From an uncultured Gammaproteobacteria bacterium (GTDB lineage: Bacteria > Pseudomonadota > Gammaproteobacteria > UBA4575): a stretch of DNA of 64,000 nt. How positions within the stretch are numbered: the stretch's first letter is position 1; every line of letters begins with the position of its first letter. Positions 3,808-18,828 of the stretch are shown here, in pieces. Below the pieces are notes generated by a model, which saw nothing but the letters and a program-made list of their open reading frames with translations, did no database searches and was not told the DNA's origin. The stretch is from NCBI GenBank assembly GCA_905479295.1, contig CAJQLY010000017.1:12380-76379 (forward strand), in the 5' to 3' direction. Both the position numbers and the translations under genes were made by a program.

Positions 3808-4620
3808 TTATATGCGTTGCTTGTCCTTGTAAGGTAGTAGTATGCGGAAGCACGTGCCTTCGCCCAGAGTGCTATTGACTTCAATTTTTCCAGAATGATT
3901 GTTCACTACATTGTCGACCATATGTAACCCTAACCCAGTACCTTTACCTTTTTCCTTTGTTGTGTAGAAAGGCTCGAAGATGAAGGGTAAATCTTTTTCT
4001 GCTATGCCATGACCATTGTCGCTAATTTCAATAATGGCTATCTTCTGATCGTCCTCTTGTTTCATACGAGTACTTAAAGTGATTAGGCCATCCTGTCTAA
4101 TTGAGTGGACAGCATTCATTAACAAGCTTAGGAATGCTTGGCCTAATCGTCCTTCGCTGGAATAGATTAAATCTAATTCATTTAAGTCCCATTGTATGGT
4201 GGTTTGAAATTTGATTTCATTAAAGGCTAGTTTGACGGTTTTTTGAAGTAGCTTGTTGACATCGACTAGCTGCCAATCGATATCTTTGGCATGGGTGAAA
4301 CTCATGAGATCGGTAACGATGTTGCGAATCCGATTAGCCCCGAGTAAGCAGTCCTCTAATAGACTAGCTGTTTCTTTTTGTATGTAGTCGAAATCAACCT
4401 CTTTTTTCATGCGTTCTAAGCGTTGAATAAGGATAATCCTCTCCTGCTCACTAGGCCTGTGTGGAGAAGTAATTTCTTCTTGCAAGCTAAGGATTTCAAT
4501 ACAGTGTTTACGGTAATCGGCAAGCATTTCAAGGTTGCTAGTGAGGAAGCCAACTGGATTATTTATCTCATGGTTGGAGAGGTTGGCTAGGATGTATAAT
4601 TTGAGACAAAAAAAAGCCAC
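3808..4620 (-). CDS. histidine kinase transmitter core only (HisKA + HATPase_c), no sensor or TM region; possibly a 5'-truncated remnant
   Basis: H-box SNHEINNPVGF sits at residue ~17. G1 (DNGHGI) and G2 (GTGLGL) boxes are present. The only start upstream of the phospho-His is GTG 4618-4620, inside the terminator stem of the upstream gene. No response regulator is adjacent. Confidence 0.6.
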   Translation of the reverse strand: MAFFCLKLYILANLSNHEINNPVGFLTSNLEMLADYRKHCIEILSLQEEITSPHRPSEQERIILIQRLERMKKEVDFDYIQKETASLLEDCLLGANRIRNIVTDLMSFTHAKDIDWQLVDVNKLLQKTVKLAFNEIKFQTTIQWDLNELDLIYSSEGRLGQAFLSLLMNAVHSIRQDGLITLSTRMKQEDDQKIAIIEISDNGHGIAEKDLPFIFEPFYTTKEKGKGTGLGLHMVDNVVNNHSGKIEVNSTLGEGTCFRILLPYKDKQRI

Positions 4621-4634
4621 GTTTTTAACGCGGC
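4608..4634 (-). terminator. intrinsic terminator after the 67-aa ORF
   Basis: The minus-strand RNA reads GCCGCG-UUAAAAA-CGUGGC followed by U8. The stem is 6 bp including one G-U pair. Confidence 0.6.
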
Positions 4635-4666
4635 CTTTTAAATAACTAATTTACTGCTCAGGGTAA

Positions 4667-4870
4667 CTATTCGTGAGAACCCTTTTCCGCGTGGGCATCA
4701 GCAATCACTTCTGTCGCGAGTTTTGAATACTCTTCGCGATAGCCATCAAGCTCTGAACCGTCTTCTGGGGTGAAGTACTCTTCTGCTGAAACGCCGTTCG
4801 CACGGTCTAACTCGCTGAATTTCTTCTGCATTTCCAGCATTCTTTTGATCTTATCCTGCTTAGAGCTCAT
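4667..4870 (-). CDS. hypothetical acidic 67-aa protein
   Basis: ORF with GGAGGA immediately upstream of the ATG and a terminator directly downstream. I recognise no family. Confidence 0.5.
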   Translation of the reverse strand: MSSKQDKIKRMLEMQKKFSELDRANGVSAEEYFTPEDGSELDGYREEYSKLATEVIADAHAEKGSHE

Positions 4871-5041
4871 ATATCCTCCGAACGAAAAGCTTTGGTGTTT
4901 AATTTGCGTATCTTGGGCCGAAGTCTAGGAGATCGGCGCGGACACTTCTGTATCTCTATTGAGAGGCTGCGGGCAGCAATAGTCTTGATTCCTTCCACTG
5001 TTGCTGCGTGATGGTTAGCCTGCTGGGTGTCCTACTCGGGC

Positions 5042-5383
5042 CTAGTAACCGCCTTTACGACGACTTTCTGGTAATCCACCGATACGACCACCCTGCTTGC
5101 TAGGGTCGCCCGGGAATAGGTCATATAAGGTTTTTGCATTAACACTTTTGTCATCCCAGGCTTTGCTCATGGCCTTCACCATATTGCGGGTGTTGGGCTG
5201 ATTGCCTGCATTGTTGATGAATTCATCACGTAAGAAGTTAATTACATCCCAGTGACGATCAGTTAATTCTACGGTTTCTTCCTTGGCAATAATTAGTGCC
5301 AATTCTTTCGACCACTCTTCAATATTGACTAAAAAGCCACTGGCTGTGGTTTCTATGCTTTTTCCATCTATTTCAAATGCCAT
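5042..5383 (-). CDS. DsrC/TusE-family paralogue lacking both conserved C-terminal cysteines
   Basis: 113 aa, aligning along its whole length with the canonical DsrC at 11320-11652 (HW[DE]VINFLR[DE].., LY[DE]LFP). The C-terminal arm reads SKQGGRIGGLPESRRKGGY instead of AKQACKYAGLPKPTGCV. AGGAGA RBS. Confidence 0.85.
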   Translation of the reverse strand: MAFEIDGKSIETTASGFLVNIEEWSKELALIIAKEETVELTDRHWDVINFLRDEFINNAGNQPNTRNMVKAMSKAWDDKSVNAKTLYDLFPGDPSKQGGRIGGLPESRRKGGY

Positions 5384-5517
5384 AACAGTATCTCCTGAAC
5401 TCCAAATGTATGAAAAAAATCGCTTGCTGGAAGCTCGCTGAGCTTAACGCACTCTGCTAATTTCACTCAAGTTCTGTGATCAATATATCCTGAGTAAAGC
5501 GACTCTTATAAAGGAAG

Positions 5518-6207
5518 CTATTTTTCCTGTGCCTCACTGATCGCGTCAATACCCTTATGAGGTAGAAACAAACCACAACCGAGTAATCGCCCGAGACCGA
5601 TACCGCGTTGCTGTAATAATACGGATTGTGCAACATCAATGCCGTCTATCATGAGGCTGCGCGTCACAGCAGGCTGGCCATTGAGTATTAATTGGGTAAT
5701 CTTTCCACACATCATCTTTTTTGGCCGTATGCTAAGCAGCTGTAGCTCTTTTAGGGCTTGTTGTAGAAAGGCATCCTCATCCTCTACCGGGCCTAAATCA
5801 ACATAGCGGCAAAATAAAGTGGTTAAGCGTGATAGTGGTCTAACGCTTGATTTCCCAAACTCTAAAGTGACACCATCGACTTCGATATGATCACCCTGTA
5901 AGGCTTCAGTTGTTGCCAGTCTTTGATTGCTGATACGAAGCGTAAAAAGAGTGCGTCGTGAAGGATAGATGAGATCATCCGGATTTTGTGGGCGTATCCA
6001 ACCATTGCCTGATTCAGCACCATGAATAGAAAAAATACCACTGTATGGGTCTGTTACTAACCACGGTAGTTTGTCGCACATAGCCTGTGATAGGGCGTCG
6101 ATATGGTCTAGCTTGAGTTGCGCACACTTAATCCTGAAGTTGACATCGATAATGTCTTCGGGGACTTTATATTCCGCTTCTTCGTTCGTGTCCTCATTCC
6201 AATACAT
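5518..6207 (-). CDS. Cas6/Cmx6-like RAMP-superfamily protein (orphan; no CRISPR context)
   Basis: 229 aa. The C-terminal glycine-rich loop RGIGLGRLLGCGLFLPHKG matches the RAMP/Cas6 G-loop pattern. The N-terminus MYWNED..VPEDIIDVNFRI and the length match my recollection of the type I-MYXAN Cas6/Cmx6 family. Not verified by HMM. Confidence 0.55.
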   Translation of the reverse strand: MYWNEDTNEEAEYKVPEDIIDVNFRIKCAQLKLDHIDALSQAMCDKLPWLVTDPYSGIFSIHGAESGNGWIRPQNPDDLIYPSRRTLFTLRISNQRLATTEALQGDHIEVDGVTLEFGKSSVRPLSRLTTLFCRYVDLGPVEDEDAFLQQALKELQLLSIRPKKMMCGKITQLILNGQPAVTRSLMIDGIDVAQSVLLQQRGIGLGRLLGCGLFLPHKGIDAISEAQEK

Positions 6208-6243
6208 GGTTTCTATCCGTTGATATCTTGCACAAAGCGTATT

Positions 6244-6435
6244 TTAGGAGCGAGCGGAAGTGAAGACGGCTTCTAATTCATCTTCCCAGTTTTCCGGGGT
6301 ATCTTTAAAGGGTGGGCGTACGTCCATCTGAAAAAACATCTCACCAGCGACAGCACGCTTAATAATTGCACTTTTTAGTTCATCGAAAGACTGCATGCTG
6401 AATTCTTCGATTAATATGTCGCTTAGTGCGAGCAT
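6244..6435 (-). CDS. hypothetical 63-aa acidic protein
   Basis: The track ORF was trimmed to the internal ATG (MLALSDILIEEF...). This start lies 4 nt after the TAG of the upstream dioxygenase. The longer version overlaps that gene by 86 nt. Confidence 0.45.
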   Translation of the reverse strand: MLALSDILIEEFSMQSFDELKSAIIKRAVAGEMFFQMDVRPPFKDTPENWEDELEAVFTSARS

Positions 6436-6439
6436 TCCG

Positions 6440-7318
6440 CTACTCCTCTGAAAATAAGCGATTATGGGAGCGCACACGATACAGCAGTCGCTGTTGCTGC
6501 GGAATACTACCGTTAGTAAAGGCACTGCGGGAATGCAAGATGTTGTTGCATATCAGGCCTTCACCTGGCTTGAGGCGATAGTCTAAGACAGCTTCACTCT
6601 GTTCAAGCTGTGCGTTAATTTGCTTTACGGCCGCTGCAACGCGGCTGCAAGCCTTCCACTGAATGCTGCGGCTGCGTGCGGTATAGCGCATATTCAGACT
6701 GCCATCATTGGGGTTGTTGAAAAATACAGGCCCACTTTGCACCGGTCTAAGTTCAACGCCATTCTCAATGTTAGCTGGAATCGTCATGCTATCTGTGGCC
6801 ATTAAAGCGTGGCAGAGCTCGGGGTCTTCGTCGTATAACGAGATATAGAGCAACTCATGATTCAGTAGGCGATTACTGCCACCTTCGGCAGCGGCTTGAG
6901 CGCAATGTAAAAGAAAAGAACGGATCTCATGTCCCGGTGGATTGTAATAACCATCGGTATGCCAATTTAAGCGTTGGTCTGAATAGGGGATATAACCTTT
7001 TGTGCGCCCCATAGGCATGACTTGTAGTGTGCTGATACTGTCTTCATCTGCACACAAATTTTGATCTAGCTTGTGCATACCAATTTGTTCGCAAAAACGT
7101 TGTATAATAGTGCGATCAACGGGTTCTGTTTGATTGAACCGATAGATCGCCATATTGTTTTCTGCGACCTGTTTGGTCAACTGTAGGTGCTCGCCCTCGG
7201 TTAGTAGTGAGGGGTTTTGAATGACGATAGCGGGTTCCGTTTTTAGACGAGACCAAGCTGCAAGTTTATGTGCTCGCCATTCTGGGTAATGCTCGAGGTG
7301 ATTGAGCTGAGACTGCAT
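6440..7318 (-). CDS. TauD/TfdA-family Fe(II)/2-oxoglutarate dioxygenase
   Basis: 292 aa. HxD facial-triad motif in LNWHTDGYY, distal His in NNILHSRSAF, and a length typical of the family. Confidence 0.75.
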   Translation of the reverse strand: MQSQLNHLEHYPEWRAHKLAAWSRLKTEPAIVIQNPSLLTEGEHLQLTKQVAENNMAIYRFNQTEPVDRTIIQRFCEQIGMHKLDQNLCADEDSISTLQVMPMGRTKGYIPYSDQRLNWHTDGYYNPPGHEIRSFLLHCAQAAAEGGSNRLLNHELLYISLYDEDPELCHALMATDSMTIPANIENGVELRPVQSGPVFFNNPNDGSLNMRYTARSRSIQWKACSRVAAAVKQINAQLEQSEAVLDYRLKPGEGLICNNILHSRSAFTNGSIPQQQRLLYRVRSHNRLFSEE

Positions 7319-7631
7319 AGAAATCCTGTAGAGTACGGCGCTAGTTGAGACGAAAAATGATTCTAATTACGGTTTATACTCTAAGTTACTGATTTAAAGA
7401 AATAAAAAATGACTCATAAAGTGACGTTTTAGGCCATTTCTGGTCATACAGAGTTGTTTGTTGGCGCCGCGTATATCCCAGTTGAGATAAGGCCCCTACA
7501 GCACCGCACCCCATAGGTAAGGTTTCGATGTTAGGGGGCGCTAACTAGACTCTACGGCATACAACTGGGTTCAAAACTCAGTGCGCTAATGCGTGGAAAT
7601 TAATTCTATTAGGAACGAGGAGAAATACAAA

Positions 7632-8900
7632 ATGGCTAACCAGCATCATGACACTCCAATGCTTGATGAGTTGGAAAATGGGCCTTGGCCTAGCTTCATT
7701 TCTGGCATCAAACGTCTGCGAGACCAGCACTCTGATGAGCGCATCAACGGTATGGCAAACGACTTGCTGGGGCAGCTAGAGCACTCATACGAGACTCGTA
7801 AAGGTTACTGGAAAGGCGGCACCGTCAGTGTCTTCGGATATGGCTCAGGTATTATTCCTCGCTTCTCAGAAGTTGGCAGCTCGTTCCCAGAATCAAAAGA
7901 ATTCCACACACTACGTGTGCAGCCTCCAGCAGGTAACTACTACACTACTGACATGCTACGTCAGCTTGGCGATAGCTGGGAGAAATGGGGTTCAGGTCTC
8001 GTTACTTTCCACGGTCAGACAGGCAACATCATGTTTATCGGTACTACTACTGATAACACTCAGCACTTCTTTGATGAAGTGAACGAATACGGTTGGGACC
8101 TTGGTGGTGCCGGTCCTTGTGTTCGTACCGGTATGTCTTGTGTTGGTGCAGCACGCTGTGAGATGTCTAACATCGACGAAATGCGCATTCACCGCACACT
8201 ACTAAATAACTTTACTGATGACGTTCACCGTCCAGCACTACCTTATAAGTTCAAGTTTAAGGTGTCTGGTTGTGGTAACGATTGCATGAACTCTATTGAG
8301 CGTTCTGATTTTGCGATCATCGGTACTTGGCGCGACAACATGAAAGTCGACCAAGACGAAGTGAAAGCATTCGTTGAAAAGAAAGGCCGTGAATACGTTA
8401 TTGATAACGTAGTAACACGTTGCCCAACGAAAGCATTGTCACTAAAAGATGACAACACTATGGAAGTCGACAACCGTAACTGTGTACGTTGCATGCATTG
8501 CATGAATGTCATGGTTAAGGCGCTTGGCCCAGGTGAAGATAAAGGCGCAACTATCCTAATCGGTGGTAAGCGTACGCTGAAGATTGGTGACTTGATGGGA
8601 ACAGTTGTTGTTCCATTCATGAAGCTTGAATCAGATGAAGATTACGAAAAGCTAACTGAAATGGCTGAAGAGACTATCGACTTCTGGGCTGAGAATGGCC
8701 TAGAGCACGAGCGTTGTGGTGAGATGATCGAGCGTATCGGTCTGGTTAACTTCCTCGAAGGTGTCGGTATTGAAGTTGATCCAAACATGGTCAACGATCC
8801 TCGCCAAAGTTCATACGTGCGTATGGATGATTGGGATCAGGAAGCTGAGAAATGGTTTAACCGTAAAGCTGAAGAAAAAGCAGCTGCTGCTGCAGGTTAG
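7632..8900 (+). CDS. dsrA: dissimilatory sulfite reductase alpha subunit (oxidative type)
   Basis: Start set at ATG 7632, preceded by GAGGAG. Siroheme/[4Fe-4S] Cys motifs CVGAARC and CGNDC, plus a ferredoxin-like insert CPTKAL..CVRCMHC. Followed by dsrB and dsrEFHC. Confidence 0.95.
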   Translation: MANQHHDTPMLDELENGPWPSFISGIKRLRDQHSDERINGMANDLLGQLEHSYETRKGYWKGGTVSVFGYGSGIIPRFSEVGSSFPESKEFHTLRVQPPAGNYYTTDMLRQLGDSWEKWGSGLVTFHGQTGNIMFIGTTTDNTQHFFDEVNEYGWDLGGAGPCVRTGMSCVGAARCEMSNIDEMRIHRTLLNNFTDDVHRPALPYKFKFKVSGCGNDCMNSIERSDFAIIGTWRDNMKVDQDEVKAFVEKKGREYVIDNVVTRCPTKALSLKDDNTMEVDNRNCVRCMHCMNVMVKALGPGEDKGATILIGGKRTLKIGDLMGTVVVPFMKLESDEDYEKLTEMAEETIDFWAENGLEHERCGEMIERIGLVNFLEGVGIEVDPNMVNDPRQSSYVRMDDWDQEAEKWFNRKAEEKAAAAAG

Positions 8901-9039
8901 TCCTAAGCAGTTATCAATAAGTTAAGAGATTAGGTTCGGATAACGAGTCAGTGTAAAGGTAGCCTTTATCGGTTGCCTTATTACTCTAACCAAACCTAAC
9001 CATAAAGATTATTACCCTGAAACTCGGGAGAGATTAATA

Positions 9040-10113
9040 ATGGCATTAGATCTAAGACCACCAATTGAATCAGGCTGTCCAGACGGCTTCCAATACATGC
9101 ATCCAGTGATGCGTAAGAACTATGGCAACTGGGACTACCATGAGCATCCACGTCCAGGTGTATTACTACACGTGGCCAAAGGTGGTGAACAAATTTGGAC
9201 AGTACGTGCAGGTACACAGCGTATTCTTGATGTTTTCACTCTGCGTAAGCTGTGTGACATCGGTGACAAATTTGCTGATGGCTATGTGCGTTTTACTATT
9301 CGCTCAAACATTGAGTACATGATTTCTGAGGAATCTAAAGTACAAGCATTAATCGACGCACTAGAAGCTGAAGGCTTTGTTGTCGGTGGTACTAAGAACT
9401 CAGTAGCTATGATTTCTCACACCCAGGGTTGGTTGCACTGTGATATTCCAGGCACTGACGCATCAGGTGTTGTGAAGGCAATGATGGATGAGTTGATTGA
9501 CGAGTTCCGTGAAAACAACATGCCTAACCGTGTGCACATCACGACTTCTTGCTGCCAGATTAACTGTGGTGGTCAAGGTGATATCGCGATTAACGTTCAA
9601 CATACTAAGCCACCAAAGATTAACCATGACTTAGTTTCAAATGTTTGTGAGCGCCCATCAGTGGTAGCTCGTTGCCCAGTGGCAGCGATTCGCCCAGCTC
9701 AAGTTAATGGCAAGCCATCGTTAGAAGTTGATGAGAAGAAATGTATCTGTTGTGGTGCTTGTTTCCCACCTTGTCCTCCAATGCAAATTAACGATGCTGA
9801 ACATAGTAAGTTAGCTGTATGGGTTGGTGGTAATCACTCTAATGCACGTGGCAAGCCTACTTTCCAGAAATTAGTTGCTGCTGGTATTCCAAATAACCCA
9901 CCACGTTGGCCTGAAGCGACAGCGATTGTTAAGCGTATCCTTGCTGCATATAAAGAAGATGCACGCGATTGGGAACGTATTAACGATTGGATTGAGCGCG
10001 TTGGTTGGCCTCGTTTCTTCGAGCTAACGGGTCTTCCGTTCACTAAGTTCCACATTGATAACTGGAAAGGTGCTCGTCGTAGCTTGAACTCTTCGACTCA
10101 TATTCGCTTCTAA
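9040..10113 (+). CDS. dsrB: dissimilatory sulfite reductase beta subunit
   Basis: 357 aa. Motifs TTSCCQINCGG, CPVAAI and CICCGACFPPCP. Position is directly after dsrA. Confidence 0.95.
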   Translation: MALDLRPPIESGCPDGFQYMHPVMRKNYGNWDYHEHPRPGVLLHVAKGGEQIWTVRAGTQRILDVFTLRKLCDIGDKFADGYVRFTIRSNIEYMISEESKVQALIDALEAEGFVVGGTKNSVAMISHTQGWLHCDIPGTDASGVVKAMMDELIDEFRENNMPNRVHITTSCCQINCGGQGDIAINVQHTKPPKINHDLVSNVCERPSVVARCPVAAIRPAQVNGKPSLEVDEKKCICCGACFPPCPPMQINDAEHSKLAVWVGGNHSNARGKPTFQKLVAAGIPNNPPRWPEATAIVKRILAAYKEDARDWERINDWIERVGWPRFFELTGLPFTKFHIDNWKGARRSLNSSTHIRF

Positions 10114-10127
10114 GAAAAGGGTTTATT

Positions 10128-10520
10128 GTGAAATATGGAATTTTAGTTAACGAGGGTCCGTACACGCATCAAGCGTCAGACTCTGCGTTAGCCTTCACTA
10201 AAGCAGCACTAGAGAAGGGGCACGAGATCTTTCGTGTCTTCTTCTACCACGATGGCGTGAATAACGGCACTAGCCTTGCTATTCCACCACAAGACGATCG
10301 TCACATTCCAAACCAATGGTCGGAATTAGCGAAAGAGTACAATATTGATCTTGTACTCTGTGTTGCGGCAGCACAACGCCGTGGGTTGTTGGATGAAAGT
10401 GAAGCTAAGCGTAATTCAAAAGCTGCAAGTAACATGATTGAGGGTTTCCGAATTTCAGGTTTGGGCCAGCTCATCGAAGCAGGTATCCAAGGCGATCGTA
10501 TGGTCGTTTTTGGCGATTAG
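10128..10520 (+). CDS. dsrE: sulfurtransferase DsrE
   Basis: 130 aa, GTG start. DsrE/TusD family with the conserved Cys in DLVLCVAAA. First gene of the dsrEFH triplet. Confidence 0.9.
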   Translation: MKYGILVNEGPYTHQASDSALAFTKAALEKGHEIFRVFFYHDGVNNGTSLAIPPQDDRHIPNQWSELAKEYNIDLVLCVAAAQRRGLLDESEAKRNSKAASNMIEGFRISGLGQLIEAGIQGDRMVVFGD

Positions 10521-10533
10521 GCCGGAGGATTAA

Positions 10534-10953
10534 ATGGAAGACGGTGATCAGGTAATTAAAAAATTCATGTATATGAACCGTAAGGCTCCTTACGGCACTA
10601 TATATGCGTGGGAATCACTGGAGGTCGTGCTGATTGCTGCGGCTTTCGATCAGGATATTAGTTTGGTATTCGCTGATGATGGTGTTTATCAGTTAATGAA
10701 AGATCAAAATACTGAAGAAGTAGGGATGAAGAATTTTTCTAAAACCTATTCAGCATTAGGTGATTACGATATTAAGAAAATTTATATTGAGCAAGAGTCA
10801 TTAGAAGAACGTGGCTTGAGTTTGGAAGATCTTCAAGGCCTAAAATATGAAGACGAAGATGATGACTGGGCAGAAAAGGATTCTATTATCTTAGTTTCTC
10901 GCGCAGAACTTGCAAAAGTCATTGACGAACAAGATGTCGTCTTTAGTTTCTAG
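10534..10953 (+). CDS. dsrF: DsrF
   Basis: 139 aa. KKFMYMNRKAPYGTIYAWE..FDQD is typical of DsrF/TusC. GGAGGA RBS. Confidence 0.9.
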   Translation: MEDGDQVIKKFMYMNRKAPYGTIYAWESLEVVLIAAAFDQDISLVFADDGVYQLMKDQNTEEVGMKNFSKTYSALGDYDIKKIYIEQESLEERGLSLEDLQGLKYEDEDDDWAEKDSIILVSRAELAKVIDEQDVVFSF

Positions 10954-10964
10954 GGGATTTTAAG

Positions 10965-11273
10965 ATGTCTATGCTACATACAGTAAACAAGAGCCCATTC
11001 GAGCGAAATACTCTCGAGTCTTGCATTAGCCTTGCAGTACCAGGAAGCGCTATCCTTCTTATCGAAGATGGTGTGATCGGAGCAATGGCGAATACTAAGC
11101 ATTCAGAGATGGTCAAAGCGGCAATGGCAAATGTAAAGATTTACGTACTCGGCCCAGATTTAAAAGCGCGTGGGTTGAATGAAGGTAATGTCGTTGATGG
11201 AATTAGCGTAGTTGGTTACGGCGAATTTGTCGATCTAACTACAGAACACTCGGCAGTGCAATCTTGGCTATAA
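10965..11273 (+). CDS. dsrH: DsrH
   Basis: 102 aa. DsrH/TusB family with the conserved Cys in LESCISLA. Confidence 0.9.
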   Translation: MSMLHTVNKSPFERNTLESCISLAVPGSAILLIEDGVIGAMANTKHSEMVKAAMANVKIYVLGPDLKARGLNEGNVVDGISVVGYGEFVDLTTEHSAVQSWL

Positions 11274-11319
11274 ATAGCTGATTTATAGCACTTACAATTC
11301 AATATAGGAGAGAACGAAA

Positions 11320-11652
11320 ATGGCAATTGAAGTAGACGGCCAAAGTTACGAAACTGACGAAGAAGGTTACCTAGAAGACTTAAACCAGTGGCGCCCAGAA
11401 TTGGGTAGCGCAATGGCTTTAGCTGACGGTGCACCTCTTGATGAAAACCACTGGGAAGTTATTAATTTCCTACGTGAGTACTACGAAGAATACCAAATTG
11501 CACCAGCAGTTCGTGTGCTAACTAAAGCTATCGGTAAGAAGCTCGGTAAAGATAAGGGTACAAGTAAGTATCTTTATGAGTTATTCCCTTACGGTCCTGC
11601 AAAGCAGGCTTGTAAGTATGCGGGTCTACCAAAGCCAACTGGCTGCGTATAA
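11320..11652 (+). CDS. dsrC: DsrC, canonical
   Basis: 110 aa. The C-terminal arm QACKYAGLPKPTGCV carries both conserved cysteines. Confidence 0.95.
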   Translation: MAIEVDGQSYETDEEGYLEDLNQWRPELGSAMALADGAPLDENHWEVINFLREYYEEYQIAPAVRVLTKAIGKKLGKDKGTSKYLYELFPYGPAKQACKYAGLPKPTGCV

Positions 11653-11723
11653 GTCCGTCTTAATTATCGGGTGGGTAAAAGCCCATCCGATATTATTTGA
11701 TAGATATAAAAAATATTCTAAAT

Positions 11724-12446
11724 ATGTCGATATTATTTGCTGTTTTATTCTACTTCGCGACTGCAGTTCTAGTCCTTGGAGTGGGATCACGCATTCGAAA
11801 ATACGCGAAAACTCCCGCGCCTCTAAAAATTCCAACAACGCCTGCGCCAACTACGCGCCGTGGTGTTGTGTTCCGTATGATTAAAGAGCTGACTATCTTT
11901 GAAAGCTTGTTTAAATCAAACAAGTGGATCTGGCTATTCGGCTGGCTTTTCCATATGGGCATGTTATTAGTGCTATTACGTCATCTACGCTACTTCACAG
12001 ACCCAGTATGGTCTTGGGTAGTGTTTATTCAGCCGTTTGGCAAATATGCATCGATAGCGATGCTACTAGGCTTAATCGGCCTCTTGGTCCGACGTATTGT
12101 CGTTGACCGTGTGCGATACATCTCTGCACCCTCTGATTTTTTAATGTTGGGACTGTTATTAGTGATTGGTGGAACTGGCGCAATGATGAGTTTTGTCACC
12201 AGTGCTGACATTATCTCACTAAAGTCTTACCTACTTGGCCTGATGGTGTTCGATATTCGCTACCTGCCAAGCGATCCAATTTTGTTGGTGCATCTGGCCT
12301 CAGTTGCTATTTTAATGATCATTTTCCCTATTTCTAAGTTGCTACATGCGCCGGGTATATTCTTTAGCCCAACACGAAACCAAGTGGATAATCCACGTGA
12401 ACGTCGCCATGTTGCTGCATGGGCCATTAAGTTAGAACAGAAATAA
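11724..12446 (+). CDS. dsrM: DsrM, NarI/HdrE-like membrane cytochrome b subunit
   Basis: Hydrophobic multi-helix ORF between dsrC and dsrK. ATG 11724 is preferred over the TTG at 11697 given in the track. Confidence 0.85.
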   Translation: MSILFAVLFYFATAVLVLGVGSRIRKYAKTPAPLKIPTTPAPTTRRGVVFRMIKELTIFESLFKSNKWIWLFGWLFHMGMLLVLLRHLRYFTDPVWSWVVFIQPFGKYASIAMLLGLIGLLVRRIVVDRVRYISAPSDFLMLGLLLVIGGTGAMMSFVTSADIISLKSYLLGLMVFDIRYLPSDPILLVHLASVAILMIIFPISKLLHAPGIFFSPTRNQVDNPRERRHVAAWAIKLEQK

Positions 12447-12462
12447 GAGCAAGGAGCAGATA

Positions 12463-14010
12463 ATGGCCAAAGTTGATTATGAAATTCCAGAGCTAAAAGA
12501 ATACCCAGTTATTCCTAAGCTAAAGAAAGATGCGATGGCGCATAGTGCTCCATATGTTGCTAAGGAAAAATTTCAAACCTCATTAGGTTATGCCGGTGAG
12601 CTAGTCGACAACTGGCAAGAAGTGGCCATCGCTAAGATGGGTGAGTTAACGACTAAGTATCGTTCACTCTCAGTATTCCTTGATTCGTGCGTGAAGTGTG
12701 GCGCTTGTACTGATAAGTGTCATTATTATCTTGGTACGACAGACCCTAAAAACATGCCGGTCGCGCGACAAGATTTATTCCGTAATGTTTACCGTCGTTA
12801 CTTCACGTTAGCCGGTAAGTTAGTACCTAAATTAGTTGGTGCACAAGACTTAACAGAAGAAGTGCTAGATGACTGGTATACCTACTTTCATCAGTGTTCT
12901 CAATGTCGTCGTTGTTCTGTTTACTGCCCTTATGGTATTGATACTGCAGAGATATCAATGGCCGCACGAGAAGTAATGGCGACCGTAGGTAAAGGACAAA
13001 AGTACTGTAACGAAATTATCGGTAAGGCACAGACATTAGGTAATAATTTAGGTCTGCCTGAGCCAGCACTAGCTGACACATTAGAAGGCTTGGAAGAAGA
13101 CGTCGAAGAAGATACCGGCGTTGCTGTTAAATTCCCACTAGATAAAAAAGGCTGTGATGTCTTACTGATCACACCATCGGCTGACTTTTTTGCAGAACCA
13201 CACGTTGATGGTTTAATCGGTTACGCCAAAGTCTTTCATGAGGCAGGTGTCTCATGGACTATGAGTTCTTACGCAAGTGAAGCAGCCAACTTTGGTATGT
13301 TCATTGGTAGTTACGAAAACATGCGTAAATTAGCTTTACGTATTCGTGAGGCAGCTATCGAGCTTGGTTGTAAGCGTATTGTATTTGGTGAATGTGGTCA
13401 TGCATGGCGTGTGGCTTATAGTTTCTTGAATACCTTAGCTGGCCCATTTGATTTCTTAGATCCAGCCTATCCAGTGCCACAGCATATTTGTGAGTTCACT
13501 CACGACTTGATCAGTAAAGACAAGCTTAAGTTTGATAAGTCAGAAAATGATCATATGACACTGACCTTCCATGATTCTTGTAACGTCGCACGTGCTTCAC
13601 GCATGGGTGATGAGGCCGGTGGTCAGTTCACGTTGCCACGCGATATTATCAACGCGACATGCAATAACTTCTATGACATGCCAAAGCATGCCATTAAAGA
13701 AGGAACTTACTGCTGTGGCGGTGGTGGTGGCTTGCTCACTGACGACTTGATGGAATTACGAGTTAAAGGCGCACTTCCACGTATGGAAGCATTAAAGAAT
13801 GTCACTGAGAATAACGGCGTGACACACATGGCAGCGATCTGTGCGATCTGTAAGAGTCAGTTTAGTAAAGTGCTACCGTATTACGGTTTTGAAATGGATC
13901 AGATTGTCAGCGTGCACCAATTGGTCAGCAACGCGATTATCTTAACCAAAGATGAAGATAGTGTAATTGATAATGAAGCTGAAACTGATGACACGGTAGT
14001 AGCAGCGTAA
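12463..14010 (+). CDS. dsrK: DsrK, HdrD-like catalytic Fe-S subunit
   Basis: 515 aa. Motifs CVKCGACTDKCH and CSQCRRCSVYCP, plus a CCG-type motif (YCCGGGGG). Confidence 0.92.
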   Translation: MAKVDYEIPELKEYPVIPKLKKDAMAHSAPYVAKEKFQTSLGYAGELVDNWQEVAIAKMGELTTKYRSLSVFLDSCVKCGACTDKCHYYLGTTDPKNMPVARQDLFRNVYRRYFTLAGKLVPKLVGAQDLTEEVLDDWYTYFHQCSQCRRCSVYCPYGIDTAEISMAAREVMATVGKGQKYCNEIIGKAQTLGNNLGLPEPALADTLEGLEEDVEEDTGVAVKFPLDKKGCDVLLITPSADFFAEPHVDGLIGYAKVFHEAGVSWTMSSYASEAANFGMFIGSYENMRKLALRIREAAIELGCKRIVFGECGHAWRVAYSFLNTLAGPFDFLDPAYPVPQHICEFTHDLISKDKLKFDKSENDHMTLTFHDSCNVARASRMGDEAGGQFTLPRDIINATCNNFYDMPKHAIKEGTYCCGGGGGLLTDDLMELRVKGALPRMEALKNVTENNGVTHMAAICAICKSQFSKVLPYYGFEMDQIVSVHQLVSNAIILTKDEDSVIDNEAETDDTVVAA

Positions 14011-14162
14011 TTAATTTGTACTAAGTATTTAATTTATAAGGGGCGCAAACGATAGCCGAGCAGAGTATACCGGGGACATTTGGGGAAATAATTCCCACCT
14101 GATCCGGGCTTGCGCTAACAAAGTGACCCAACTTATTTAAGAGTTTTAATAGGAGCATTATT

Positions 14163-16115
14163 ATGGCTACGTCTAAAGATGAAATGTCTTATAACTTAAC
14201 GTTTCGTAAGTACGAAGAAGGCGATCACACCTGGGGTAACTACGGAGATCAAATCTTCTCAGAAGATACCTCACACAAGTGTCCGACCTACGTACACCGT
14301 ACGCCACCCTGTCAGGGTAGTTGCCCGTCAGGCGAAGATATTCGTGGTTGGTTAGACATTATTCGTGGTATTGAAAACCCACCAACTGACATGTCTATGC
14401 AGGAATATGCATTCCGTCGTTCTACTGATGCTAATCCATTCCCATCAATGATGGGTCGTGTTTGCCCAGCACCTTGTCAAGAAGGTTGTAACCGTAACAA
14501 CGTCGAAGACTTTGTTGGTATTAATGCGGTTGAGCAATACATTGGTGACACAGCGAAGACTGAAAACTTCCAATTTGATGCTGCACCAGCACTATCTGGT
14601 AAGCGTATTGCGATCATCGGTGGTGGCCCAGCCGGTCTAGCTGCAGCATTCCAGCTTCGTAAGAAAGGCCATGCCAGCACCATCTTTGATGATCATGATG
14701 AGTTAGGCGGTATGTTCCGTTACGGCATTCCTGGTTACCGTACACCACGTGATGTGCTTGACCATGAAATTCAGCGAATCATTAACCTAGGTGATATTGA
14801 GACCCGTATGAATATACGTGTTGGTCGCGATGTATCTATGGAAGATGTCGAGAAAGAATTTGATGCAGTTATTTGGGCGCTAGGTTGCCAATCAGGTCGT
14901 AGCTTACCTGTGCCAAACGGTGACGCACCAAACTGTGTCTCTGGTGTTAAATTCCTAGAAGCCTTTAATAAAGGTCTGCTAAAAGTAGCCGCTGACCGTG
15001 TTGTTTGTGTTGGTGGTGGTGATACCTCAATTGACGTTGTATCTGTAGCACGTCGTTTAGGTAAAATTGATAAATTAGAAGCTGAGCAAGCGCCTGAGTT
15101 TGTTATCGGTGGATACGTAGCCCATGACGCAGCTTTTGCTGCTGCCCGTGAAGGTGCTGAAGTCACACTGACATCACTATTCCAACGCGCTGAAATGACA
15201 GCTGCTGAGTGGGAAGTTCATGAAGCAGTACACGAAGGTGTTCGTATCGATAACGGTGTTATGCCAGTTGAAGTTATCGTCAACGCTGAAGGCCGTGCAA
15301 CAGCATTACGTATGGCAAAATGTGAATTAGAAGGTGGTCGTCCAACACCAGTTGCCGGTACTGAATACGATATCGAATGTGATTTGATCGTATCAGCGAT
15401 TGGTCAGGGTGGTGATTTAGAAGGCCTAGAAGGTATGGATAATGGTCGTGGTCTAATCGACGCAGACAAGCATTACCAAGTACCAGAAAAAGAAGGTCAC
15501 TTCGTTTGTGGTGACATCATTCGTCCACACTTACTAACTACAGCGATTGGCCAAGCCTCTATCTGTGCAGATAGTGTTGACCATTACCTTGCTGAAAGTG
15601 AGATGGCTAAGCGTCCTAAAGTTGACGTCCATCACTTCAGCCTACTATCGAAATTACAAGAGACTGGTTTAGAGCCAGGTGATTACGAGAGTGGCGCACA
15701 TCACGGTACAGACGAAGCAGAATACTCAGTACACAACTATGAAGATCGTTCAGCGCAAGAAGTGATTGCATCAGATCGTTTGTACTTGGCGCACTTTGAT
15801 TACACACCACGCGGTCAACGCGACACAGAAGTGCCTGATTCAGAAACAGTACTAGGACACTTTGAAGAGCGTGTAATTGGCTTTAGTGAAGCAGAAGCTG
15901 TCGAAGAAGCAAAACGTTGCATGAGTTGTGGTATGTGTTTTGAGTGTGATAACTGTGTTATCTACTGCCCACAAGATGCTGTTTTCCGAGTTAGCAAAGA
16001 CAAGAAGACCACAGGTCGTTACGTTGATACTGACTACGCAAAATGTATTGGTTGCCACATTTGTGCTGATGTTTGCCCTACAGGCTACATTGATATGGCA
16101 CTAGGTGATCACTAA
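14163..16115 (+). CDS. dsrL: DsrL, GltD-like NAD(P)H oxidoreductase with a C-terminal ferredoxin domain
   Basis: 650 aa. Dinucleotide folds IIGGGPAGLAAA and VGGGDTSIDV. C-terminal CMSCGMCFECDNC..CP and CIGCHICADVCP. Confidence 0.92.
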   Translation: MATSKDEMSYNLTFRKYEEGDHTWGNYGDQIFSEDTSHKCPTYVHRTPPCQGSCPSGEDIRGWLDIIRGIENPPTDMSMQEYAFRRSTDANPFPSMMGRVCPAPCQEGCNRNNVEDFVGINAVEQYIGDTAKTENFQFDAAPALSGKRIAIIGGGPAGLAAAFQLRKKGHASTIFDDHDELGGMFRYGIPGYRTPRDVLDHEIQRIINLGDIETRMNIRVGRDVSMEDVEKEFDAVIWALGCQSGRSLPVPNGDAPNCVSGVKFLEAFNKGLLKVAADRVVCVGGGDTSIDVVSVARRLGKIDKLEAEQAPEFVIGGYVAHDAAFAAAREGAEVTLTSLFQRAEMTAAEWEVHEAVHEGVRIDNGVMPVEVIVNAEGRATALRMAKCELEGGRPTPVAGTEYDIECDLIVSAIGQGGDLEGLEGMDNGRGLIDADKHYQVPEKEGHFVCGDIIRPHLLTTAIGQASICADSVDHYLAESEMAKRPKVDVHHFSLLSKLQETGLEPGDYESGAHHGTDEAEYSVHNYEDRSAQEVIASDRLYLAHFDYTPRGQRDTEVPDSETVLGHFEERVIGFSEAEAVEEAKRCMSCGMCFECDNCVIYCPQDAVFRVSKDKKTTGRYVDTDYAKCIGCHICADVCPTGYIDMALGDH

Positions 16116-16160
16116 GCAATCCTGACGCTAGACGTACAGTAGTAGAAGTAAACGACTATT

Positions 16161-16652
16161 ATGGGAATACTCTTGTCAAAGTTAGCTGTAATTAAGCATA
16201 GCCTTGCCCTTATCCTGGTTTTAATCCTGGGTATGGGCTCGGTATATGCGGTTGATAAGCACGCCATCAATGTTCCAGCACCGAAAGGTGAAGAATGTGT
16301 TGAAGATGCAAAATGGATGCGTGTTAATCACTTTAAGACCGTATTAAATCATCGTGATGATACGGTTATACGTGGTATTCGTACGGAAAAGCATAGCTTA
16401 AAGAACTGCATCGACTGTCATATTACACCGAATAAAACAGGTGACTATGCGCGCTATTCTAATAGTGAAGAGCATTTTTGTGCGTCTTGTCATACCACTG
16501 CTGCGGTCTCTATTGACTGCTTTAGTTGTCATGCCGATCGTCCAGAGCATGTCATTCGTGCAGCACGTCAACAGAGTCAACTTGAAGCCCTCAAGAAAAA
16601 CTCAGTTCACGTTAGCGCAACCGAATTAATTCTCAACACACCACAGCCGTAA
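16161..16652 (+). CDS. dsrJ: DsrJ, triheme cytochrome c
   Basis: 163 aa. N-terminal signal/anchor and three CxxCH motifs (CIDCH, CASCH, CFSCH). Confidence 0.92.
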   Translation: MGILLSKLAVIKHSLALILVLILGMGSVYAVDKHAINVPAPKGEECVEDAKWMRVNHFKTVLNHRDDTVIRGIRTEKHSLKNCIDCHITPNKTGDYARYSNSEEHFCASCHTTAAVSIDCFSCHADRPEHVIRAARQQSQLEALKKNSVHVSATELILNTPQP

Positions 16653-17443: not shown

Positions 17444-17445
17444 GC

Positions 17446-18648: not shown

Positions 18649-18683
18649 GACTATCTGCATTACTTAAGACTTAAATCTTAGTC

Positions 18684-18724
18684 AAAAAAAGCGGGCCCTG
18701 ATTAATTCAGGGCCCGCTTTTTTT
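18684..18724 (+). terminator. intrinsic (bidirectional-looking) terminator of the dsrA-P operon
   Basis: A7, then GCGGGCCCTGA-TTAAT-TCAGGGCCCGC, then T7. The 11-bp stem is perfect. Confidence 0.85.
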
Positions 18725-18748
18725 ATACCTACGATTTAATGAATGATT

Positions 18749-18794
18749 TTATAGGCGGGTAATAATTTGCTGGGTGAACTCAATGGTGGATGCA
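18749..18794 (-). pseudogene. orphan duplicate of the 3' end of the icd-like gene
   Basis: Minus-strand translation gives ..SASTIEFTQQIITRL*, compared with ..SASTTEFTQQIIARL* at the real gene end (19659). No upstream coding continuation. Confidence 0.7.
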
Positions 18795-18795
18795 G

Positions 18796-18822: not shown

Positions 18823-18828
18823 CTCTAG

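What the first reader, a model, noticed from the sequence alone, without database searches (positions are those of the whole stretch)
5042..7318. Cas6/Cmx6-like + Cys-less DsrC + TauD-dioxygenase cassette sitting back-to-back with dsrA
Seen in the sequence:
- Four co-directional minus-strand genes: a TauD/TfdA-type dioxygenase (WHTDGYY, HSRSAF), a 63-aa acidic ORF 4 nt later, a 229-aa RAMP-like protein 36 nt later, and a 113-aa DsrC-fold protein 134 nt later.
- The first gene starts only 314 bp from dsrA, on the opposite strand.
- No CRISPR repeats, no other cas gene, and no tusBCD-type partner specific to this cassette anywhere in the 64 kb.

Established knowledge:
- Cas6 proteins are sequence- and structure-specific endoribonucleases.
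- DsrC is the sulfur-carrying substrate of DsrAB/DsrMKJOP.
- From memory, DsrC has also been reported to bind DNA upstream of dsrA in Allochromatium vinosum through an HTH-like motif.

Inference: combining an RNA-binding RAMP fold, a redox-dead DsrC fold and an oxygenase is not a described pathway. The cassette could be an RNA- or protein-directed regulatory or modification module tied to dsr expression, or to sulfonate/sulfur metabolism.
Basis: partly seen in the sequence, partly recalled or inferred. Interest (0 to 1): 0.8.

Follow-up and report, generated by a model that had tools for sequence, protein, structure and literature searches.

The report
Non-CRISPR Cas6 operon beside dsrAB
Next to the genes bacteria use to oxidise stored sulfur lies a conserved five-gene operon of unknown function, built around a Cas6-type protein that has left CRISPR immunity and a sulfur-carrier look-alike with no sulfur-carrying cysteines.

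Summary

- **Genes:** the minus strand carries dsrQ (a TauD-family dioxygenase), a 63-aa acidic protein, a Cas6-family protein, a cysteine-free DsrC paralogue, and an unreported 67-aa ORF followed by a terminator. Together they span 4611-7318.
- **Cas6 call:** HMMs and a confident model both support it. The best structural match is type I-B CAST Cas6 (TM 0.75-0.80).
- **No CRISPR link:** there is no array in the window. Among the 93 related loci, one array turned up, and it is unrelated.
- **Not a chance adjacency:** the same order and orientation, divergent from dsrAB, recur in the related loci. These include cultured purple sulfur bacteria.
- **Allochromatium vinosum:** Alvin_1248-1250, directly upstream of dsrA, are annotated as a Cas6-related protein plus two hypothetical proteins.
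- **Shared regulatory site:** a 16-bp palindrome, TATCYC-N4-GRGATA, is conserved in the dsrA-dsrQ promoter region. A weaker copy lies upstream of the 67-aa gene.
- **Function:** unproven. I favour a binding-based control module acting on Dsr proteins. Control of the dsr mRNA is the main rival.
- **What is already known:** dsrQ was named in 2012. I found no description of the Cas6/DsrC-like partnership.

The parts
6440..7318 (-). dsrQ: TauD-family Fe(II)/2-oxoglutarate dioxygenase, 292 aa
   Evidence: Pfam TauD 4e-20. HxD...H and the Arg after the distal His are conserved in 68 orthologues. Nearest NCBIfam and PDB relatives are TmpA, TMLH and BBOX, all weak. Present upstream of the Cas6-like gene in 83/88 loci. 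The name dsrQ comes from Lenk 2012, as cited in PMC7596348.
6244..6435 (-). 63-aa acidic protein, probably a DUF6967 relative
   Evidence: No Pfam or NCBIfam hit. Present in 90/92 loci. Median pI 4.6. Conserved motif MDV(R/K)PP..DTPE.WED. In a distant clade the gene in the same slot is Pfam DUF6967. The hhalign match to it is weak. It starts 4 nt after dsrQ and ends 36 nt before the next gene.
5518..6207 (-). Cas6-family (RAMP) protein, non-CRISPR clade, 229 aa
   Evidence: PF09559 1e-48; TIGR02807 96.5 bits against a 98.85 cut-off. AF2 model pLDDT 83, pTM 0.80. Foldseek top hits are all Cas6, led by 8fcj_B at TM 0.75-0.80. The G-rich loop GxGxGRxxGCGLFxPHK is conserved, and there is a family-specific loop HGAESGNGWxRP. 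Median pI 5.8.
5042..5383 (-). Cysteine-free DsrC/TusE-family paralogue, 113 aa, C-terminus RKGGY
   Evidence: PF04358 4e-33. Best PDB match is A. vinosum DsrC 1YX3, 3.9e-21. The C-terminal RKGGY is invariant in 77/77 locus orthologues and 120/120 database hits, with no Cys in the arm. 85-89% identical between genomes whose Cas6-like proteins are about 56% identical.
4667..4870 (-). 67-aa acidic protein, fifth gene of the unit (not in the finding)
   Evidence: No family. Present in 66/84 loci. Mutually exclusive with a 240-aa gene found between the small ORF and Cas6 in other lineages. 76-85% identity to the nearer relatives.
4611..4639 (-). Intrinsic terminator closing the unit
   Evidence: 13-bp stem followed by a U-tract, just after the 67-aa ORF stop.
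4951..4966 (.). Degenerate copy of the palindromic box upstream of the 67-aa gene (minus strand CCTCTCAATAGAGATA), followed by the -10-like TAGACT at 4927-4922
   Evidence: A conserved two-block element lies at a fixed 59-82 nt before the 67-aa ORF in most of the 70 loci examined; 63 distinct sequences were kept to build the model. It matches TATCYC-N4-GRGATA with 2 mismatches. It is absent in loci that lack the 67-aa gene.
7474..7489 (.). Box A: palindrome TATCCCAGTTGAGATA in the dsrA-dsrQ divergent promoter region
   Evidence: Exact match in the window. The pattern is exact in 54/71 related intergenic regions and within 1 mismatch in 67/71; shuffled controls give 0. Aligned.
7506..7551 (+). 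Probable dsrA promoter: box B (GCACCCCATAGGTAAGG, 7506-7522) and -10-like TAGACT (7546-7551)
   Evidence: Conserved block in 19 aligned loci. CTAGACT is present in 56/71 loci and the box B core in 67/71. The promoter assignment is inferred.
7564..7582 (+). Stem-loop in the dsrA leader (ACTGGG...CTCAGT)
   Evidence: Hairpins sit at the same place in related loci with different stem sequences: ACAGCC/GGCTGT, CAGCTGT/ACAGCTG, GCGGTCA/TGGCCGT. Median folding z-score is -1.0 over 50 leaders. RNAalifold gave no consensus. A link to the Cas6-like protein is speculative.
7632..18648 (+). Neighbouring dsrABEFHCMKLJOP operon (context)
   Evidence: ORFs and translations; Pfam for DsrL. The true DsrC at 11320-11652 ends ...QACKYAGLPKPTGCV.

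Best explanation
**Shown.** This is a conserved accessory operon of the oxidative (reverse) Dsr sulfur-oxidation locus. It is not a CRISPR-Cas remnant and not a chance neighbour.

**Inferred, my best guess.** It is a control module that acts on the Dsr machinery by binding, not by carrying sulfur.
- The cysteine-free DsrC paralogue keeps the DsrC fold and a flexible C-terminal arm with an invariant RKGGY end. It can therefore dock where DsrC docks (DsrAB, DsrEFH or DsrK) but cannot accept sulfur. That would make it a mimic, blocker or allosteric partner.
- The universal core is the small acidic protein plus the Cas6-derived protein. Their genes are almost always adjacent and tightly spaced. 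The Cas6-derived protein has become acidic and gained a new invariant loop. I take this pair to be a binding or processing subunit for one of the small proteins.
- DsrQ has an intact active site. Its nearest characterised relatives hydroxylate cationic lysine-derived substrates. Where it is present, it would add an O2- and 2-oxoglutarate-dependent hydroxylation of a basic residue on one of these small proteins.
- A palindromic operator shared with the dsrA promoter region ties expression of the operon to that of dsr.
For: - **Synteny:** small ORF 90/92, TauD 83/88, DsrC-like 83/87, divergent dsrA 75/77. The same module occurs in Thiocystis violacea, Thiorhodovibrio litoralis and a Thiohalocapsa MAG. 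In L045 it is kept next to dsrEFHCMKL even though dsrAB is absent there.
- **Conservation rates:** the three small proteins evolve almost as slowly as the Dsr core. Against locus L004 the DsrC-like protein is 86% identical, the 67-aa protein 80% and the 63-aa protein 73%. DsrA, DsrB and DsrC are 93-95%. The Cas6-like protein is 59% and TauD 57%.
- **Invariant arm:** RKGGY is invariant in 197/197 orthologues, with no Cys in the arm.
- **Charge:** the Cas6-like protein is acidic, median pI 5.8 and net charge -6.
- **Gene spacing:** gaps between dsrQ, the small ORF and the Cas6-like gene are short or overlapping in most loci.
- **DsrQ active site:** the catalytic residues are conserved. Nearest families are TmpA, TMLH and BBOX.
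- **Shared operator:** box A is exact in 54/71 loci against 0 in shuffles, with a weaker copy before the 67-aa gene.
- **Expression in A. vinosum:** Table S2 of PMC11267869 gives S0-grown versus sulfide-grown ratios. Alvin_1248-1250 change 6-18 fold while dsrA-P fall to 0.09-0.29.
- **Precedent:** DsrD is a small protein once taken for a DNA-binding regulator. It proved to be an allosteric activator of DsrAB and is absent from sulfur oxidisers (PMC8794893).
Against: - No interaction was tested.
- The Cas6-like protein keeps the G-rich loop and about ten invariant Arg, Lys or His residues. An RNA or other anionic ligand is therefore not excluded.
- The module is not uniform. dsrQ is missing in some lineages (L086, L042, L045, and by annotation A. 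vinosum). The DsrC-like gene is replaced by an unrelated 182-aa gene in a distant clade. By annotation it is also not adjacent in A. vinosum.
- The A. vinosum values come from a secondary table with some spreadsheet errors. In the pyrite data set the three genes do not change while dsrA falls 26-fold.
- That Alvin_1249 and Alvin_1250 correspond to the 240-aa and small proteins is inferred from annotation and gene order only.
Confidence: 0.35

Rival explanations
1. RNA-level control. The Cas6-derived protein still binds, and perhaps cuts, one specific stem-loop. The most likely target is the structured 5' leader of the dsr mRNA or a site in its own transcript. It would then act as a post-transcriptional, probably negative, regulator of dsr expression. 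The small acidic protein and DsrQ would modulate it.
For: - The Cas6 fold is well supported and the G-rich loop is retained.
- Invariant His35 follows the first strand in an LDH motif, and about ten basic residues are invariant.
- A stem-loop sits at a fixed place in the dsrA leader, with different stem sequences in different lineages. Mean folding z-score is -1.0.
- In A. vinosum the Cas6-related trio and dsr mRNAs change in opposite directions, S0 versus sulfide.
- From memory, post-transcriptional control of dsr by DsrR and DsrS is known in A. vinosum. The window's dsr operon ends at dsrP without dsrR or dsrS.
Against: - The protein is acidic, unlike the mildly basic CAST Cas6 it matches (hand count on the alignment).
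- No RNA element was found that tracks the Cas6-like gene across loci.
- The hairpin-like box inside the cassette tracks the 67-aa gene. It has a fixed-distance -10 element, so it behaves as DNA.
- RNAalifold found no consensus in the leader.
- 5' leader hairpins are common in mRNAs.
- Opposite regulation can come simply from divergent promoters that share an operator.
Confidence: 0.25
2. Catabolic reading, the published speculation for DsrQ. The dioxygenase releases sulfite from an intracellular or ambient sulfonate, and the other genes are helpers for that pathway.
For: - The protein belongs to the TauD family and has an intact active site.
- The speculation is quoted in PMC7596348 and PMC9371685.
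- A TauE-family exporter gene lies near the cassette in the Thiohalocapsa loci.
Against: - No NCBIfam taurine or alkylsulfonate dioxygenase model is hit. The nearest relatives act on quaternary-ammonium substrates.
- The rest of the module persists without dsrQ.
- This reading gives no role to a Cas6 fold or a cysteine-free DsrC.
- dsrQ also occurs in phototrophic purple sulfur bacteria.
Confidence: 0.1
3. A decaying or minimal CRISPR-Cas or other defence element that happens to sit near dsr.
For: - Cas6 HMM hits, including the PADLOC Cas6 models.
- NCBI names relatives 'type I-MYXAN Cas6/Cmx6'.
- One related locus, L046, has a CRISPR array 6 kb away.
Against: - There is no array in the window.
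- Only L046 among the 92 sequences scanned has a true array. Its repeat is unrelated and its close relatives lack it.
- No PADLOC hit for the four other proteins.
- The position next to a core metabolic operon is stable across divergent genomes. That is the opposite of how defence islands behave.
Confidence: 0.02

Closest known systems
Cas6 of type I-B / 'I-MYXAN' systems (Pfam PF09559, NCBIfam TIGR02807 Cas6/Cmx6; solved example 8fcj_B, Cas6 of a type I-B CAST Cascade)
   Same: Two-RRM RAMP fold, TM 0.75-0.80. Profile match to 8fcj_B at 2.5e-18. C-terminal glycine-rich loop conserved. Similar length.
   Different: - No CRISPR array or cas neighbours.
- Always next to dsr genes.
- Acidic rather than basic.
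- Carries an invariant inserted loop, HGAESGNGWxRP, that is absent from 8fcj_B and modelled with low confidence.
- The window protein falls just below the TIGR02807 cut-off. Chromatiaceae orthologues pass it and are therefore named Cas6/Cmx6 by NCBI.
DsrC/TusE/RspA family (PF04358); A. vinosum DsrC, PDB 1YX3
   Same: Same fold and length. Conserved HWD..N.LR core and a GLP hinge before a flexible C-terminal arm.
   Different: Both functional cysteines are missing, so it cannot be a sulfur carrier. The arm is two residues longer, basic, and ends in the invariant RKGGY. It fits the cysteine-free 'RspA' category of the family named in PMC8477390. That RspA proteins are thought to be regulatory is from memory.
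dsrQ (TauD-like gene divergent from dsrA; Lenk et al. 2012)
   Same: Same family, same position and same orientation relative to dsrA.
   Different: Earlier accounts, as far as I could read them, treat it as a lone gene and speculate on sulfonate cleavage. Here it is the first gene of a conserved multi-gene operon. I could not read the 2012 paper.
DsrD, allosteric activator of reductive DsrAB
   Same: A small dsr-linked protein with no redox chemistry that works by binding DsrAB. It was long misread as a DNA-binding regulator (PMC8794893). This is a functional analogy for the small proteins here.
   Different: No sequence relationship. DsrD belongs to reductive systems and is absent from sulfur oxidisers.
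DUF6967 (PF22295)
   Same: A small protein encoded between the TauD-like and Cas6-like genes in a distant clade of the same module. There is a weak motif-level match to the 63-aa protein.
   Different: The window protein does not reach any Pfam threshold. Homology is probable but not shown.

Membership tests
CRISPR-associated Cas6/Cmx6 (TIGR02807 equivalog) | Score at or above the curated cut-off of 98.85 bits | tested here: not met
   The window protein scores 96.5 bits. Orthologues from Chromatiaceae-type loci score 117-120 bits and pass.
CRISPR-associated Cas6/Cmx6 (TIGR02807 equivalog) | RAMP fold (two RRM-like domains) with a C-terminal glycine-rich loop | tested here: met
   AF2 model pLDDT 83. 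Foldseek top 45 hits are Cas6, Cse3 or other CRISPR effector (RAMP) chains. The G-rich loop is invariant.
CRISPR-associated Cas6/Cmx6 (TIGR02807 equivalog) | Encoded next to a CRISPR array and other cas genes | tested here: not met
   No array in the window. Only L046 among the 92 sequences scanned has a true array, and it is unrelated. The neighbours are dsr genes.
CRISPR-associated Cas6/Cmx6 (TIGR02807 equivalog) | Sequence- or structure-specific endoribonuclease activity on a repeat hairpin | not testable with these tools
   His35 (LDH) is invariant, but the position aligned to it in 8fcj_B is Asn. No cognate RNA was identified. The protein is acidic.
DsrC (dissimilatory sulfur carrier) | PF04358 fold | tested here: met
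   4e-33; 1YX3 at 3.9e-21.
DsrC (dissimilatory sulfur carrier) | Two conserved cysteines in the C-terminal arm (penultimate Cys, and a Cys about 10 residues before it) | tested here: not met
   The protein has no cysteine. None of 197 orthologues has a Cys in the last 25 residues. The true DsrC at 11320-11652 has both.
TusE (tRNA thiolation sulfur relay) | Equivalog score (cut-off 191 bits) and the conserved C-terminal Cys | tested here: not met
   87.5 bits against 191; no Cys.
TauD/TfdA-family Fe(II)/2OG dioxygenase; dsrQ | PF02668 match with the HxD/E...H iron triad and the 2OG-binding Arg | tested here: met
   4e-20. WHTD and LHxR are conserved in 68 orthologues.
TauD/TfdA-family Fe(II)/2OG dioxygenase; dsrQ | Divergently transcribed directly upstream of oxidative-type dsrA (the defining context of dsrQ) | tested here: met
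   313-nt spacer. Divergent dsrA is present in 75/77 loci. The definition is as quoted in PMC7596348.
Taurine dioxygenase proper | Match to a curated taurine or alkylsulfonate dioxygenase model | tested here: not met
   Only weak, sub-threshold NCBIfam hits to TmpA, TMLH, BBOX and GlaH.
Known anti-phage defence systems (PADLOC) | Hits to system components beyond Cas6 | tested here: not met
   Only Cas6 models hit. The other four proteins have none.

The most novel reading that the evidence does not exclude
A Cas6 endoribonuclease lineage has been domesticated away from CRISPR. It would serve as a single-target RNA-binding or RNA-processing regulator of a core energy pathway, recognising the structured leader of the dsr mRNA. 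A small acidic partner and an O2-dependent hydroxylase (DsrQ) would gate it, so that expression of sulfur oxidation is coupled to oxygen and sulfur status. This would be the first housekeeping use of a Cas6 outside immunity and transposition.
Probability: 0.2. Interest if true: 0.85.

Novelty: new variant of a known kind. Interest (0 to 1): 0.66.

Why it matters
- **Sulfur oxidation.** The reverse-Dsr pathway is a main route of biological sulfur oxidation in sediments, oxygen-minimum zones, symbioses and phototrophic mats. Its gene set is treated as well charted. A four- to six-gene module sits at the head of the dsr locus in many Gammaproteobacteria, including the model organism A. vinosum by annotation. 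It has no assigned role, which points to a missing layer of control or maturation.
- **CRISPR biology.** There is a sizeable Cas6 clade: 220 clusters at 50% identity score E<=1e-30. Almost all of the 150 best-scoring representatives carry the new NGW loop. In the roughly 90 loci examined it sits beside dsr genes, with no CRISPR link. NCBI and JGI name such proteins Cas6 (NCBI: type I-MYXAN Cas6/Cmx6). That can inflate CRISPR counts in sulfur-oxidiser genomes.
- **Testability.** Gene deletions in A. vinosum, which as I recall is genetically tractable, would test the idea directly.

Tried and rejected
- **Cassette box as a Cas6 hairpin.** I first read the conserved box between the DsrC-like and 67-aa genes as a possible Cas6 RNA hairpin. 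I rejected this for three reasons. It has a second conserved block (TAnnnT) at a fixed 20 nt. It sits 59-82 nt before the 67-aa ORF. It is missing wherever that ORF is missing. Its sequence also matches the DNA palindrome in the dsrA-dsrQ region.
- **Leader structure.** RNAalifold on 14 dsrA leaders gave no consensus structure. Only per-sequence folds and a modest z-score support a leader hairpin.
- **67-aa versus 240-aa protein.** The two are mutually exclusive across loci, but hhalign found no homology between them.
- **ThiF neighbour.** A ThiF gene follows the cassette in L088 and L089. Together with the GG-Y C-terminus this suggested a ubiquitin-like sulfur carrier. I dropped the idea because ThiF is absent from the sister loci L090 and L091 and from all other loci.
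- **L046 CRISPR array.** I checked it and judged it incidental.
- **Literature.** Searches for Cmx6, Cas6 with dsr, solo or orphan Cas6, dsrQ, and Alvin_1248-1250 found no description of the module. Lenk et al. 2012 and Weissgerber et al. 2013 are not held. An earlier mention there cannot be excluded.
- **Not done.** I did not use the second structure job or the metagenome scan. Only single window sequences were eligible for the structure job, and neither would have separated the hypotheses.


Full report
**1. What is there**

On the minus strand the window has five co-directional ORFs:
- 6440-7318, 292 aa
- 6244-6435, 63 aa
- 5518-6207, 229 aa
- 5042-5383, 113 aa
- 4667-4870, 67 aa, not in the finding

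A strong intrinsic terminator follows at 4639-4611. The gaps are 4, 36, 134 and 171 nt. The first gene starts 313 nt from the dsrA ATG at 7632. From there dsrABEFHCMKLJOP runs to 18648 on the plus strand.

**2. Identities**

- **292-aa protein.** It is a TauD-family Fe(II)/2-oxoglutarate dioxygenase (Pfam 4e-20). The HxD...H triad and the Arg after the distal His are conserved in 68 orthologues. No curated taurine-dioxygenase model is hit. The nearest relatives, all weak, are TmpA, trimethyllysine hydroxylase and gamma-butyrobetaine hydroxylase.
- **229-aa protein.** It hits Pfam Cas6 PF09559 at 1e-48 and TIGR02807 Cas6/Cmx6 at 96.5 bits against a 98.85 cut-off.
  - A model built on 16 homologues is confident (pLDDT 83, pTM 0.80).
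  - All its top structural matches are Cas6 proteins. The best is Cas6 of a type I-B CAST Cascade at TM 0.75-0.80 (sequence profile 2.5e-18).
- **113-aa protein.** It has the DsrC fold (Pfam 4e-33; A. vinosum DsrC 1YX3 at 3.9e-21) and contains no cysteine.
- **63-aa and 67-aa proteins.** Neither matches any family.

**3. Conservation**

A scan of one genome per species found 210 genomes with a relative of the Cas6-like protein. I looked at the best 80 loci plus 13 fetched by other routes. A few contigs were fetched twice. Among loci with enough flank:
- small ORF immediately upstream in 90/92
- TauD-like gene in 83/88
- DsrC-like gene downstream in 83/87
- 67-aa gene in 66/84
- dsrA divergent upstream in 75/77

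The organisms are Gammaproteobacteria MAGs (Thiotrichales, Thiohalobacter, Thiogranum and Chromatiales labels) and one Burkholderiales MAG. Cultured purple sulfur bacteria also carry the module: Thiocystis violacea and Thiorhodovibrio litoralis.

[quoted passage not shown] Alvin_1249 and Alvin_1250 are hypothetical proteins, and Alvin_1251 is DsrA.

**4. Variation**

- Chromatiaceae-type loci and some others insert a 237-240-aa protein with no family between the small ORF and the Cas6-like gene. These loci lack the 67-aa gene. The two are mutually exclusive and show no homology.
- dsrQ is absent in a Thiohalocapsa MAG and in L042 and L045. In L045 the small-Cas6-DsrC-like trio faces dsrEFHCMKL instead of dsrAB.
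- A distant clade next to dsrAB has TauD, DUF6967, the Cas6-like gene and then an unrelated 182-aa protein.
- The constant core is therefore the small acidic protein plus the Cas6-like protein. The 63-aa protein shares a motif with DUF6967, but the profile match is weak.

**5. Not CRISPR**

- The window has no array.
- Of the 92 sequences scanned, only L046 has a true array. It lies 6 kb away, its repeat is unrelated, and its close relatives lack it.
- PADLOC hits only Cas6 models.
- A profile search of 1.84 billion representatives gave 1329 clusters at E<=1e-3 and 220 at E<=1e-30.
- Of the 146 listed representatives of 200 aa or more, 144 carry the loop motif (S/E)GNGWxRP or a close variant. 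That loop is absent from the CAST Cas6 and is modelled with low confidence.
- Orthologues from Chromatiaceae-type loci pass the TIGR02807 cut-off. This explains their NCBI name, 'type I-MYXAN Cas6/Cmx6'.

**6. Regulatory DNA**

- **Conserved core.** The dsrA-dsrQ spacer holds a roughly 90-nt core conserved in all loci aligned.
- **Box A.** This is the palindrome TATCYC-N4-GRGATA, at window 7474-7489. It is exact in 54/71 loci and within one mismatch in 67/71. Shuffled controls give none.
- **Box B and the dsrA -10.** Box B (7506-7522) lies closer to dsrA, followed by TAGACT (7546-7551). CTAGACT occurs in 56/71 loci.
- **Copy before the 67-aa gene.**
  - A degenerate copy of box A lies between the DsrC-like and 67-aa genes (4951-4966).
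  - It is followed 20 nt later by a TAnnnT element.
  - It sits 59-82 nt before the ORF.
  - An HMM built from it finds box A in about 25 loci, in the cassette orientation.
- **My reading.** These are promoters sharing one operator for a dimeric regulator. This is inferred.
- **Candidate regulator.** From memory, the site resembles the 7-2-7 sites of NarL-type regulators. The window encodes such a two-component pair followed by a rhodanese at 24193-26835. This is a lead, not a result.

**7. Expression evidence from the literature**

Table S2 of PMC11267869 re-tabulates the microarray data of Weissgerber et al. 2013. It compares S0-grown with sulfide-grown A. vinosum.
- Alvin_1248, 1249 and 1250 are at 12.5, 6.3 and 17.7 fold.
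- dsrA to dsrP are at 0.09-0.29.
- In that paper's own pyrite-versus-sulfide RNA-seq, the three genes are unchanged (0.9-1.1) while dsrA is at 0.04.

So the genes respond to the sulfur substrate, and they do not simply follow dsr. The table has some spreadsheet errors, and I could not read the original paper.

**8. Clues to mechanism**

- **Conservation rates.** Between the window and locus L004, DsrA, DsrB and DsrC are 93-95% identical. The DsrC-like protein is 86%, the 67-aa protein 80% and the 63-aa protein 73%. The Cas6-like protein is only 59% and DsrQ 57%. The small proteins are thus constrained like the Dsr core.
- **DsrC-like arm.** The DsrC-like C-terminus RKGGY is invariant in 197/197 sequences. 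In true DsrC this arm carries the reactive cysteines.
- **Charge.** The Cas6-like protein is acidic, with median pI 5.8 and net charge -6. The aligned part of the CAST Cas6 is about +5 by my hand count on the alignment.
- **Retained and new sites in the Cas6-like protein.** It keeps the G-rich loop, an LDH motif after the first strand, and about ten invariant basic residues. The new loop carries invariant His, Glu, Ser, Asn and Trp residues. This looks like a new active or binding site, and I cannot explain it.

**9. Best explanation and rivals**

- **Protein-level control module, 0.35.** The cysteine-free DsrC would act as a non-reactive mimic docking on a DsrC partner. The small-protein/Cas6-like pair would be a binding or processing subunit. 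DsrQ would add an oxygen-dependent hydroxylation of a basic residue. The precedent is DsrD, a small protein first taken for a DNA-binding regulator and then shown to be an allosteric activator of DsrAB. DsrD is absent from sulfur oxidisers (PMC8794893).
- **RNA-level control by a still RNA-binding Cas6, 0.25.** This is supported by the retained loop, by a leader stem-loop whose stem sequence differs between lineages, and by the opposite mRNA changes in A. vinosum. It is weakened by the acidic charge and by the lack of any RNA element that tracks the gene.
- **Sulfonate cleavage by DsrQ, 0.1.** This is the published speculation. It does not explain the partner genes, or why the module persists without dsrQ.
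- **CRISPR remnant or chance adjacency.** Both are effectively excluded.
- **Something else.** About a quarter of the probability remains here.

**10. Novelty**

- Already known: dsrQ as a named gene, cysteine-free DsrC-family members as a class, and the Cas6-related annotation in A. vinosum.
- As far as the searchable literature shows, three things are new. The genes form one conserved operon. A large Cas6 clade is dedicated to dsr loci rather than CRISPR. The RKGGY subfamily and the shared operator are defined here.
- I file it as a new variant of known kinds, with unknown function. It is testable in an organism for which, as I recall, genetic tools exist.

Noticed in passing
window 24193-26835 (+): A GAF/HisKA_3 histidine kinase, a NarL/LuxR-type response regulator and a rhodanese lie in a row about 5.5 kb past the end of the dsr operon. 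From memory, the box A palindrome resembles NarL-type 7-2-7 sites, so this pair is a candidate regulator of the dsr and cassette promoters.
   Followed up: no
window 18648-23759: The dsr operon ends at dsrP. No dsrN, dsrR or dsrS follows it. A CobB/CobQ-type amidase (dsrN-like, 455 aa) sits apart at 22392-23759, after DJ-1/PfpI, isocitrate/isopropylmalate dehydrogenase and radical-SAM/TRAM genes.
   Followed up: partly
L055, L067-L069, L073, L080, L082, L084-L087, L092, L093: A 237-240-aa protein with no known family is inserted between the small ORF and the Cas6-like gene. It is strictly exclusive with the 67-aa gene and shows no detectable homology to it. This suggests functional replacement.
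   Followed up: partly
L088-L091: A distant clade of the module has TauD, DUF6967, the Cas6-like gene and a 182-aa unknown protein in place of the DsrC-like gene. In L088 and L089 a ThiF-family E1-like gene follows.
   Followed up: partly
L046 16674-18100: A true CRISPR array (36-nt repeat GTTGTCTTAGCACCACCTATTCCTGAGTGGTAAGCT, at least 22 copies) lies 6 kb downstream of the cassette in one locus only. Its repeat is unrelated to the boxes.
   Followed up: yes
window 5384-5517 (-), and the same spacer in L007-L012: In the window, the spacer between the Cas6-like and DsrC-like genes holds a weak hairpin-plus-U-tract (GCTTCCAGCAAGC GATTTTTTT). In several relatives it holds long inverted repeats (GGGGTCAGAGCCCTTT...AAAGGGCTCTGACC). 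This could be attenuation, a separate DsrC-like transcript, or a small mobile repeat.
   Followed up: no
window 7583-7631 (+) and related loci: The dsrA leader has conserved sequence blocks after the stem-loop: GCGTGGAA(A/T), and then TAACCCC in relatives.
   Followed up: no
L001, L002, L084 (downstream of the cassette): Two 2OG-Fe(II) oxygenase genes (PF13640), a GNAT acetyltransferase (in L001 and L002) and a DUF6866 gene recur a few kb downstream of the cassette in three distant loci. They are not in the window.
   Followed up: no
window 3808-4620 (-) and 2854-3480 (-): Directly downstream of the cassette lie a short histidine-kinase-like ORF (HATPase_c, with only a trace of HisKA and no sensor domain) and a SOUL haem-binding protein. 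In the A. vinosum table, a SOUL protein (Alvin_0055) is up 11-fold on S0.
   Followed up: no
window 40822-41064 (+): A cobalamin riboswitch (Rfam RF00174, 103 bits) lies upstream of a 646-aa ORF.
   Followed up: no
A. vinosum Alvin_1508 (literature): This DsrC/TusE-family paralogue sits next to a SufS cysteine desulfurase and falls together with the dsr genes (0.13 on pyrite, 0.27 on S0). The Cas6-related trio behaves differently. Whether it is the RKGGY type is unknown.
   Followed up: no
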